Of a stretch of 64,000 nucleotides of DNA, positions 14,047 to 14,244 are shown in pieces. The DNA is taken from the NCBI GenBank assembly GCA_951406725.2, contig OX597826.1, positions 49,724,001 to 49,788,000 of the forward strand. Direction: 5' to 3'. Numbering within the stretch: the stretch's first letter is position 1; each line of letters starts with the position of its first letter. The translations under genes were made by a program, and so were the position numbers. This DNA is from Octopus vulgaris (lineage: Eukaryota). The notes beneath the pieces are model-generated. The model worked only from the letters and a program-made list of their open reading frames with translations, was not told the origin of the DNA and did no database searches.

Positions 14047-14239
14047 GTAGGTCCCGGGTTGATTCGGGGTTAACCACAGTAAGTAAGGTACTCAATACAT
14101 AGCAGAGTAAAATTAATTTATTATATAGAAGGAGCTTCTACAGGACTAGTACTGTTTCATTCCAGAGAAATGAGCTTCCTGAAGATTTCTCTGGAATGAA
14201 ACAGTACTAGTCCTGTAGAAGCTCCTTCTATATAATAAA

Positions 14240-14244
<5 letters not shown>
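14047..14244. mobile_element. Penelope-like terminal fragment with inverted duplication, in (TA)n
   Basis: Perfect 60-bp inverted repeat 14112-14171/14185-14244 overlapping an HHR; (TA)n on both sides. Confidence 0.65.
14172..14224 (+). ncRNA. Type I hammerhead ribozyme (predicted)
   Basis: Stem I GAGCUUC/GAAGCUC, core CUGAAGA, stem II U-UUC-UCUG-GAA-U, GAAA, stem III ACAG/CUGU with palindromic loop, GUA cleavage triplet at 14215-14217. Confidence 0.75.

What the first reader, a model, noticed from the sequence alone, without database searches (positions are those of the whole stretch)
14112..14244. Complete hammerhead fold overlapped by a perfect 60-bp inverted repeat
HHR at 14172-14224 has a 7-bp stem I, CUGAAGA, GAAA, a 4-bp stem III with palindromic ACUAGU loop and a GUA site, but U-U replaces the usual G10.1-C11.1. 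The upstream arm is an exact antisense copy of everything 3' of the CUGAAG core, so a read-through RNA would form a 60-bp hairpin that blocks ribozyme folding. Perfect arms imply a recent event, resembling inverted 5' truncation of Penelope elements.
Basis: partly seen in the sequence, partly recalled or inferred. Interest (0 to 1): 0.72.

Follow-up and report, generated by a model that had tools for sequence, protein, structure and literature searches.

The report
Head-to-head Penelope retroelement stub
This hairpin is one of about 1,700 similar stubs in the genome, each made of two copies of a jumping gene's ribozyme-bearing front end joined head to head in a TA repeat; the layout is known, and an extra G at the join likely records copying of the element's capped RNA from both cut DNA strands.

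Summary
The 60-bp inverted repeat and hammerhead motif are real but not a one-off. 14047-14244 is one of at least 1,672 short palindromes of a Hydra-type Penelope-like element (PLE) that inserts into (TA)n; one copy has an intact RT-endonuclease ORF. U10.1-U11.1 occurs in 14 of 25 published Hydra families. The ribozyme starts 29 nt behind a TATA motif. Its seventh stem-I pair is a G found in 0 of 80 promoter-bearing arms but 24 of 29 TA-joined stubs, as expected for a copied mRNA cap. 138 of 149 palindromes pair a long arm with a short arm, and either arm can carry the G. Best reading: both nicked strands prime on sense, capped, mostly uncut RNA at two internal sites, and the two cDNAs join. 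The hairpin is a by-product, not a switch, and this copy's ribozyme is predicted to misfold. The architecture is published; the mechanism is inferred and bears on an open question. The scan noted the same pattern earlier on other DNA.

The parts
14022..14046 (.). (TA)n target, left; its last 4 bases also match element +138..+141 (likely priming microhomology)
   Evidence: blast of a natural full-length copy aligns +13..+141 to 14171-14043
14047..14171 (-). Long arm: element +137 back to +13 (+1 = 14173-equivalent, predicted transcription start); lacks the CUGAAG core, so no ribozyme on the minus strand
   Evidence: 99.2% to natural copy L161; same end in family copies
14047..14111 (-). Unpaired 'tail' (+73..+137), present on one arm only
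   Evidence: PLE tail described in PMC8557442 and PMC11167929
14112..14171 (-). Left arm of the exact 60-bp inverted repeat (+72..+13)
14172..14172 (+). Extra G at -1, not encoded by the source element (T or C there); likely the copied mRNA cap; supplies the apparent 7th pair of stem I
14173..14244 (+). Short arm: element +1..+72, complete to the predicted transcription start
   Evidence: 98.6% to L161; short-arm ends +56..+72 in the family
14173..14223 (+). Type I hammerhead motif (6-bp stem I, 3-bp stem II closed by U10.1-U11.1, 4-bp stem III); predicted cut between 14217 and 14218; activity untested
14193..14193 (+). Rare loop II substitution (G), mirrored as C at 14163 in the other arm; predicted to favour a misfold
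   Evidence: 5 matches genome-wide, 4 are both arms of 2 palindromes; folding
14245..14276 (.). (TA)n target, right; no target-site duplication can be told inside the repeat

Best explanation
The locus is a promoter-less, head-to-head insertion of the first 72 and first 137 bases of a Hydra-type Penelope-like element, likely made when both nicked strands of a TA repeat primed reverse transcription on the element's capped RNA and the two cDNAs were joined at their ends. SHOWN: family size, the autonomous RT/GIY-YIG parent, (TA)n targeting, the one-long/one-short arm rule, junctions piling up at +1, a TATA motif at -29 and a pyrimidine at -1 in promoter-bearing copies, an unencoded G at -1 on either arm, and arms sharing variants. 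INFERRED: +1 is the Pol II start and the G is the copied cap. Priming is at AU-rich sites near +138..141 and +56..72 that can pair with the (TA)n ends. Both cDNAs come from one source copy, mostly from uncut RNA, and join through 1-4 nt microhomologies or template jumps. The hammerhead is the parent's 5'-terminal ribozyme carried along; a minority of templates appear cut at its site. The hairpin is a by-product.
For: Family: 3,539 exact core matches plus 2,575 of an older subfamily; 851 + 821 short palindromes, controls 10 and 5. Parent: head-to-head arms 0-8.5 kb apart enclose RT/EN pieces; unit 5.6-6.1 kb; stop-free 722-codon frame with Hydra motifs. Two ends: 138 of 149 short palindromes are long+short; 82 of 145 short arms end at +68; the same ends appear as loose ends in contigs of independent runs. 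Start/cap: [TC]ATAAA at -29 across subfamilies whose spacer differs; -1 is T 62, C 18, G 0 in 80 promoter-bearing arms; in 69 TA-adjacent loci (first 100 of 144 rows, hand count) 24 of the 29 that keep +1A+2G have G before it; 493 matches with G preceded by A, C or T. Only 1 of about 20 ends at the ribozyme cut site has an added G, so it is not generic tailing. L1 full-length insertions carry such a cap G (PMC11702581). Two cDNAs, not one fold-back: G on long arm only 26, short only 26, both 7, neither 47 of 106; in 17 of 21 stem-I junctions the truncated arm reaches further 3' than the full arm. One source: site +34 concordant in 147 of 149 pairs. Made anew: 17 junction strings in 50 consecutive copies. 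In vitro, a Poseidon PLE nicks and extends both strands, starts at two internal sites, and uses uncut RNA (PMC11167929).
Against: No raw RNA reads were available, so the start site, cap and strand are not observed. YAG before CTTCC also resembles a splice acceptor. 376 CAG-preceded matches exist; 19 of the 30 viewed are a subfamily with native C and the rest are junctions, so that control is confounded. G-N-G variants (GTG in 6 of 69) are unexplained. Samples were gathered with patterns that favour copies starting at +1, so they do not measure the hotspot. Arm concordance could partly reflect subfamily age or later gene conversion; unshared arm differences outnumber shared rare ones 54 to 12, and many look like long-read errors. 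In PAc the priming site is not homologous to the target, whereas here ends overlap (AT)n. This copy's own junction is not read-confirmed.
Confidence: 0.8

Rival explanations
1. One cDNA folds back on itself or the RNA self-primes (the antisense self-priming model proposed for PLE palindromes), giving both arms from a single priming event.
For: Proposed in PMC3846280. Explains arm identity directly. 14 of 50 junctions are perfect palindromes around AGCT.
Against: Fold-back cannot give a second arm reaching further 3' than the first. Yet in 26 of 106 copies, and in this one, the short arm is complete with the G while the partner runs to +137; 17 of 21 likewise at stem-I junctions. An antisense template does not explain junctions and an added G at a sense TATA/initiator position.
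Confidence: 0.08
2. The palindrome is a self-propagating non-autonomous unit (MITE-, fold-back- or SINE-like) copied whole from a master hairpin.
For: Hundreds of near-identical ~205-bp copies; two junction types make up 29 of 50 copies.
Against: 17 junction types in 50; a second copy with the same rare variant has a different junction; a continuum of arm spacings up to 8.5 kb; no promoter in the stub; termini are unequal, not terminal inverted repeats.
Confidence: 0.05
3. The G comes from a spliced or trans-spliced leader ending in GAG, so the stubs copy a spliced 5' end (as for the D. virilis Penelope intron that ends at helix I).
For: Upstream sequence has branch-point-like and YAG features; precedent in PMC4209133.
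Against: No constant base before the G (T, A, G and rarely C); G also appears before +2 starts (9 of 69); no joint seen in contigs (weak evidence).
Confidence: 0.05
4. The antisense arm is a selected regulator of this ribozyme, or the locus is a functional hairpin RNA gene.
For: Very stable hairpin; weak Rfam miRNA match, 37.8 bits against a 90-bit cut-off.
Against: Same layout in at least 1,672 copies; no promoter; this copy's ribozyme is predicted to misfold on its own (P about 6e-5 vs 0.02); no host gene evident among the window's long frames.
Confidence: 0.02

Closest known systems
Hydra-clade C-terminal EN+ Penelope-like elements (Craig et al. 2021, PMC8557442; seen: passages, outline, section 11, two supplement searches, supplement part 2 of 59, file cut)
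   Same: DKT, CxCx5C, CxxC/CxH motifs, no CCHH, (TA)n target, hammerhead with U10.1-U11.1 as in 14 of 25 listed families; inverted 5'-truncated copy also noted for Penelope-13_HM.
   Different: Unit 5.6-6.1 kb with a ~3.3-kb microsatellite-rich 3' region (published ones generally <3 kb); RWR for RWK; protein start and ribozyme differ from Hydra-1_Obim, so a different family; tail ~69 nt rather than 30-40.
Canonical EN+ PLE insertion unit: inverted pLTR + one-sided tail (Adineta Pen2a, PMC3846280, passages; scheme in PMC8557442)
   Same: Head-to-head arms, palindrome at the junction, tail on one arm, TATA/Inr-like motif in the pLTR.
   Different: That paper favours self-priming on an antisense template and leaves the question open; the data here point to two primings on sense, capped RNA.
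Poseidon element PAc of Anolis in vitro (Frangieh et al. 2024, PMC11167929; parts 1-2 of 4)
   Same: Both strands nicked and extended, two internal start sites bounding the tail, AT-rich target, uncut RNA as main template.
   Different: PAc starts inside the ORF at sites not homologous to the target; here the ends lie in the 5' UTR and overlap (AT)n by 2-6 nt. The paper does not address inverted products in the parts read.
PLE hammerheads (Cervera and de la Pena 2014, PMC4209133; parts 1-2 of 4)
   Same: Type I motif in the pLTR, palindromic loop III, pairs 100-700 bp apart on opposite strands already reported.
   Different: Their minimal motifs keep G10.1-C11.1 and lack a stable helix III; this one has a 4-bp helix III and U-U.
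LINE-1 cap-G junctions and twin priming (PMC11702581, passages; twin priming from my own knowledge)
   Same: Extra G at complete 5' ends; microhomology joining; second strand primes internally.
   Different: L1 twin priming copies non-overlapping parts of the RNA; here both cDNAs copy the same stretch, giving a palindrome.

Membership tests
Hydra-clade PLE (parent element) | Single ORF, RT with C-terminal GIY-YIG endonuclease | tested here: met
   722-codon stop-free frame in L162 with YRDD and VY...YIG motifs read by eye; Pfam gave no RT/GIY-YIG hit; 765 unnamed homologues at E<=1e-10, best 38-52% identity
Hydra-clade PLE (parent element) | DKG changed to DKT; RWK motif | tested here: met
   DKT present; RWR in place of RWK
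Hydra-clade PLE (parent element) | CxCx5C linker, no CCHH, CxxC and CxH around conserved E and N | tested here: met
   All present in P0001 by inspection
Hydra-clade PLE (parent element) | (TA)n insertion and hammerhead | tested here: met
Hydra-clade PLE (parent element) | Generally shorter than 3 kb (descriptive, not diagnostic) | tested here: not met
   HHR-to-HHR distance 5.6-6.1 kb in 3 copies; 5,743 bp in L161
Hydra-clade PLE (parent element) | Placement in the Hydra clade on an RT tree | not tested
   Reference proteins were seen only as supplement text, not held as sequences
EN+ PLE inverted insertion unit | Inverted 5'-truncated copy adjoining head to head; tail on one end only | tested here: met
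   138 of 149 short palindromes long+short; same rule in long pairs
EN+ PLE inverted insertion unit | Target-site duplication | tested here: inconclusive
   Both flanks are (TA)n
Type I hammerhead ribozyme | Core C3-A9, G12-A14, A15.1-U16.1, H17 and three helices | tested here: met
   common variants in 392 arms fall at N7, loop II and loop III only
Type I hammerhead ribozyme | Watson-Crick pair 10.1-11.1 | tested here: not met
   U-U; reported in natural hammerheads and as the best-tolerated mismatch (PMC3088659 passages); common in Hydra PLEs
Type I hammerhead ribozyme | Self-cleavage | not testable with these tools
   Indirect for the family only: 19 TA-joined ends at +44..46 vs 4 at a control site with the same TA overlap, two palindromes with both arms starting there. 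This copy is predicted to misfold
Non-LTR retrozyme | Head-to-tail tandem monomers, each with a ribozyme | tested here: not met
   Single head-to-head unit here; a 271-bp tandem derivative exists elsewhere
MITE / fold-back DNA transposon | Equal terminal inverted repeats and a fixed internal structure | tested here: not met
   Unequal ends; 17 junctions in 50 copies

The most novel reading that the evidence does not exclude
PLE head-to-head inversions are made by two target-primed cDNAs copied from the same sense, capped RNA and joined end to end. This Hydra element's ribozyme begins at nucleotide +1, so cutting removes the cap with 45 nt and acts as a gate between translatable, commonly copied RNA and a rarer cut template. 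The ~1,700 stubs would then be a genomic CAGE-like record that settles the sense-versus-antisense question, and a dispersed source of 60-67-bp dsRNA against the element's own 5' UTR.
Probability: 0.4. Interest if true: 0.65.

Novelty: new member of a known kind. Interest (0 to 1): 0.38.

Why it matters
The locus itself is a dead by-product of a known class. The family is useful because how PLEs form inverted copies, and whether they use sense or antisense RNA, was left open in PMC3846280 and named as a next task in PMC8557442. Here more than a thousand young junctions, a predicted start site, two defined priming sites and one copy with an intact ORF give exact predictions for an in vitro assay. 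Practical lesson: PLE ribozyme stems read from truncated genomic copies can include a base (the cap G) that the RNA does not encode. I found no paper stating the cap-G or two-cDNA reading for PLEs in searches; the library lacks most subscription papers (for example Arkhipova 2006, not read).

Tried and rejected
Rfam on the window and on the motif: no hammerhead model hit; miRNA hits are below gathering scores. Pfam on the ORF: one irrelevant sub-threshold hit. Splice-leader idea (note): dropped. Stem-I self-priming as source of the G: only 36 AAGG-preceded matches, mostly the other arm's end. C-at-minus-1 as a control: confounded by a subfamily. Expression: no RNA holder listed; contigs cannot show starts, strand or level. 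Locus confirmation: no contig of 4 runs bridged this copy's junction, which proves nothing either way. A first tally of arm ends had an offset bug (part A) and was redone. No look-alike by sequence in earlier notes. No other piece of the family's ORF in the window. bioRxiv 10.64898/2026.07.22.740005 (passages only, supplements closed) had nothing on inverted forms; unseen supplements of it and the cut part of the PMC8557442 file could hold this family or its ribozyme.

Full report
Observation. The arms 14112-14171 and 14185-14244 are exact complements over 60 bp with a 13-nt spacer. A strict descriptor hits once in the window and never in 200 dinucleotide simulations; Rfam does not recognise it. 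The surroundings are microsatellite-rich, and no host exon was evident among the long frames. The window lies at G000:C13:49724001-49788000 of a 2.8-Gb genome; octopus is my inference from genome style, and earlier scan notes say the same.

A large family. A DNA search gave 678 candidates; all 40 scored were near full length at 93-100%. The 28 of 30 loci that I could anchor all sit in (TA)n and are palindromic. A 30-nt core occurs 3,539 times, an older subfamily 2,575 times. Short head-to-head palindromes number 851 and 821 for the two subfamilies, against reversed-pattern controls of 10 and 5. The window copy itself is missed by those patterns because of its deeper truncation, so 1,672 is a lower bound.

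The parent. Many arms face each other 0.3-8.5 kb apart and enclose RT and endonuclease fragments. Fifty-nine matches continue past the long end into a 5' UTR and ORF start, about half of them in one tandem array. The unit is 5.6-6.1 kb in three copies, and one of 20 fetched loci, L162, has a stop-free 722-codon frame. It carries DKT, CxCx5C, CxxC and CxH motifs, lacks CCHH, and has RWR for RWK, matching the Hydra clade as defined in PMC8557442 section 11. It differs from the published Hydra-1_Obim in protein start and ribozyme. I built no tree.

The ribozyme is ordinary for its clade. In File S2 of PMC8557442, 14 of 25 Hydra families have U at both 10.1 and 11.1 (my count), and PMC3088659 reports this mismatch in natural hammerheads and as the best tolerated. 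Among 392 ungapped arms, alleles of 2% or more inside the motif fall only at N7, loop II and loop III, as expected if the fold is conserved in active sources. Native stem I is 6 bp. The window copy has a rare loop II change that makes the hammerhead fold 5 kcal/mol worse than an alternative (probability about 6e-5, against 0.02 for the common forms, whose best folds keep all three helices).

Two fixed 3' ends. Numbering from +1 = 14173, 138 of 149 short palindromes have one arm ending near +137 and one ending at +56..+72, most at +68; long pairs obey the same rule. Both ends overlap (AT)n by a few bases. Contigs of independent public runs show loose ends at the same bases and before +1, one of them a head-to-head junction. 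This matches the one-sided PLE tail and the two internal start sites, on both nicked strands, shown in vitro for a Poseidon element (PMC11167929).

A fixed 5' end with an extra G. Promoter-bearing arms have [TC]ATAAA starting at -29 in subfamilies whose spacer sequence differs, and T (62) or C (18), never G, at -1 in 80 arms. Among 69 distinct TA-adjacent loci in the first 100 of 144 rows (hand count), 29 keep +1A+2G; 24 of them have G before it, 2 A, 1 C, 2 T. Nine more read GG before +3 and six read GTG. Genome-wide, 514 young arms start GAG against 2,009 with native TAG, and 493 arms of both subfamilies have the G preceded by A, C or T. No constant base precedes the G, which argues against a spliced leader. 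Ends at the ribozyme cut site carry an added G in 1 of about 20 cases, which argues against generic tailing. Full-length L1 insertions carry a cap-derived G (PMC11702581). I infer that +1 is the transcription start and the G is the copied cap; no RNA data show it. Against this: the CAG control was confounded, and the GTG class is unexplained.

Two cDNAs, one source. In 106 long/short palindromes (the window-like and stem-I-selected sets left out; many of the rest were picked for having a G, but not for which arm) the G is on the long arm only in 26, the short only in 26, both in 7, neither in 47. A single fold-back cannot give a complete short arm with a partner reaching +137, which is the window's case. 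Of 30 viewed loci, 21 have the partner ending at stem I, and in 17 of these the truncated partner is the long arm. Subfamily site +34 agrees between arms in 147 of 149 pairs. The window's rare variant occurs 5 times genome-wide: both arms here, both arms of a copy on C24 with another junction, and one arm only of a copy on C5. Rare unshared differences (54) outnumber shared ones (12) in 107 pairs; many are AGCT-site losses that also pepper a tandem array and look like long-read errors, but this is not proven. Fifty consecutive palindromes show 17 junction strings, 14 perfect AGCT overlaps and 15 GA overlaps being commonest (hand count), so stubs are made anew. They lack the promoter and are likely dead ends.

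Does the family ribozyme cut? Indirectly and rarely: 19 TA-joined ends at +44..46 against 4 at a control site with the same TA overlap (15 vs 4 for the strict comparison, p about 0.01), and two palindromes with both arms starting at the cut (L336, L337). Starts at +1 are several times commoner (144 vs 81 raw rows, the latter including other breakpoints), in line with uncut RNA being the main template in vitro.

Comparison. The architecture is published: inverted truncated copy, junction palindrome and one-sided tail, and opposite-strand ribozyme pairs. PMC3846280 explained the palindromes by self-priming on an antisense template but did not exclude a sense template; the evidence here favours sense, capped RNA and two primings. 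My searches found no paper stating this for PLEs. Earlier notes of this scan reached the same ideas on other DNA; I had stated my reading before seeing them, and they are not counted as support.

Verdict. Real feature, ordinary locus, new family of a known clade. Identity as a head-to-head Hydra-type PLE stub about 0.95; two-strand priming on capped sense RNA about 0.8; regulatory function of this hairpin about 0.02. Interest 0.38, for the testable mechanism rather than for the locus.

Noticed in passing
G000:C8:91475370-91483201 (L097-L110): Tandem array of about 30 copies of a 271-bp unit (TATA motif, ribozyme, 5' UTR, ORF start) of the same element, in two back-to-back blocks; retrozyme-like derivative.
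   Followed up: partly
L336 (C2:62516262) and L337 (C30:13753179): Palindromes in which both arms begin at the predicted ribozyme cut (+46) with an (AT)n spacer; possible record of cleaved templates.
   Followed up: partly
L157, L160, L161, L165, L166, L168, L170: The ORF breaks at the same C run (WYNPP) in 7 of 20 fetched loci, while L162 reads through; homopolymer error, or a real subfamily lesion.
   Followed up: no
window 14452-14475 (+), 32682 (-), 30472 (-): Three copies of another repeat with a degenerate hammerhead-like core (GAAGAG...CTCGAAA), unrelated in sequence to this family.
   Followed up: no
window 42969-43000 (+), 18299 (-), 47519 (+): Further CUGANGA/GAAA-like cores of other repeats.
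   Followed up: no
window 60223-62238 (-): 671-codon open frame with a LINE-type reverse transcriptase (CR1/L2-like by recalled motifs); a related fragment at 36473-37000 (+).
   Followed up: no
window 27330-27569, 1063-1173, 33619-33690: Other exact inverted repeats of 33-96 bp made of microsatellite arms; could be further fold-back insertions.
   Followed up: no
L161 +145..+5743: The element's ~3.3-kb region after the ORF is rich in (TA)n/(CA)n-type repeats, so it carries its own target sequence; window 2037-2592 matches it at 72%.
   Followed up: no
loci: G-T-G and G-G-G instead of G-A-G at the 5' end in 9 of 69 loci; might be miscopying of a methylated first nucleotide.
   Followed up: no
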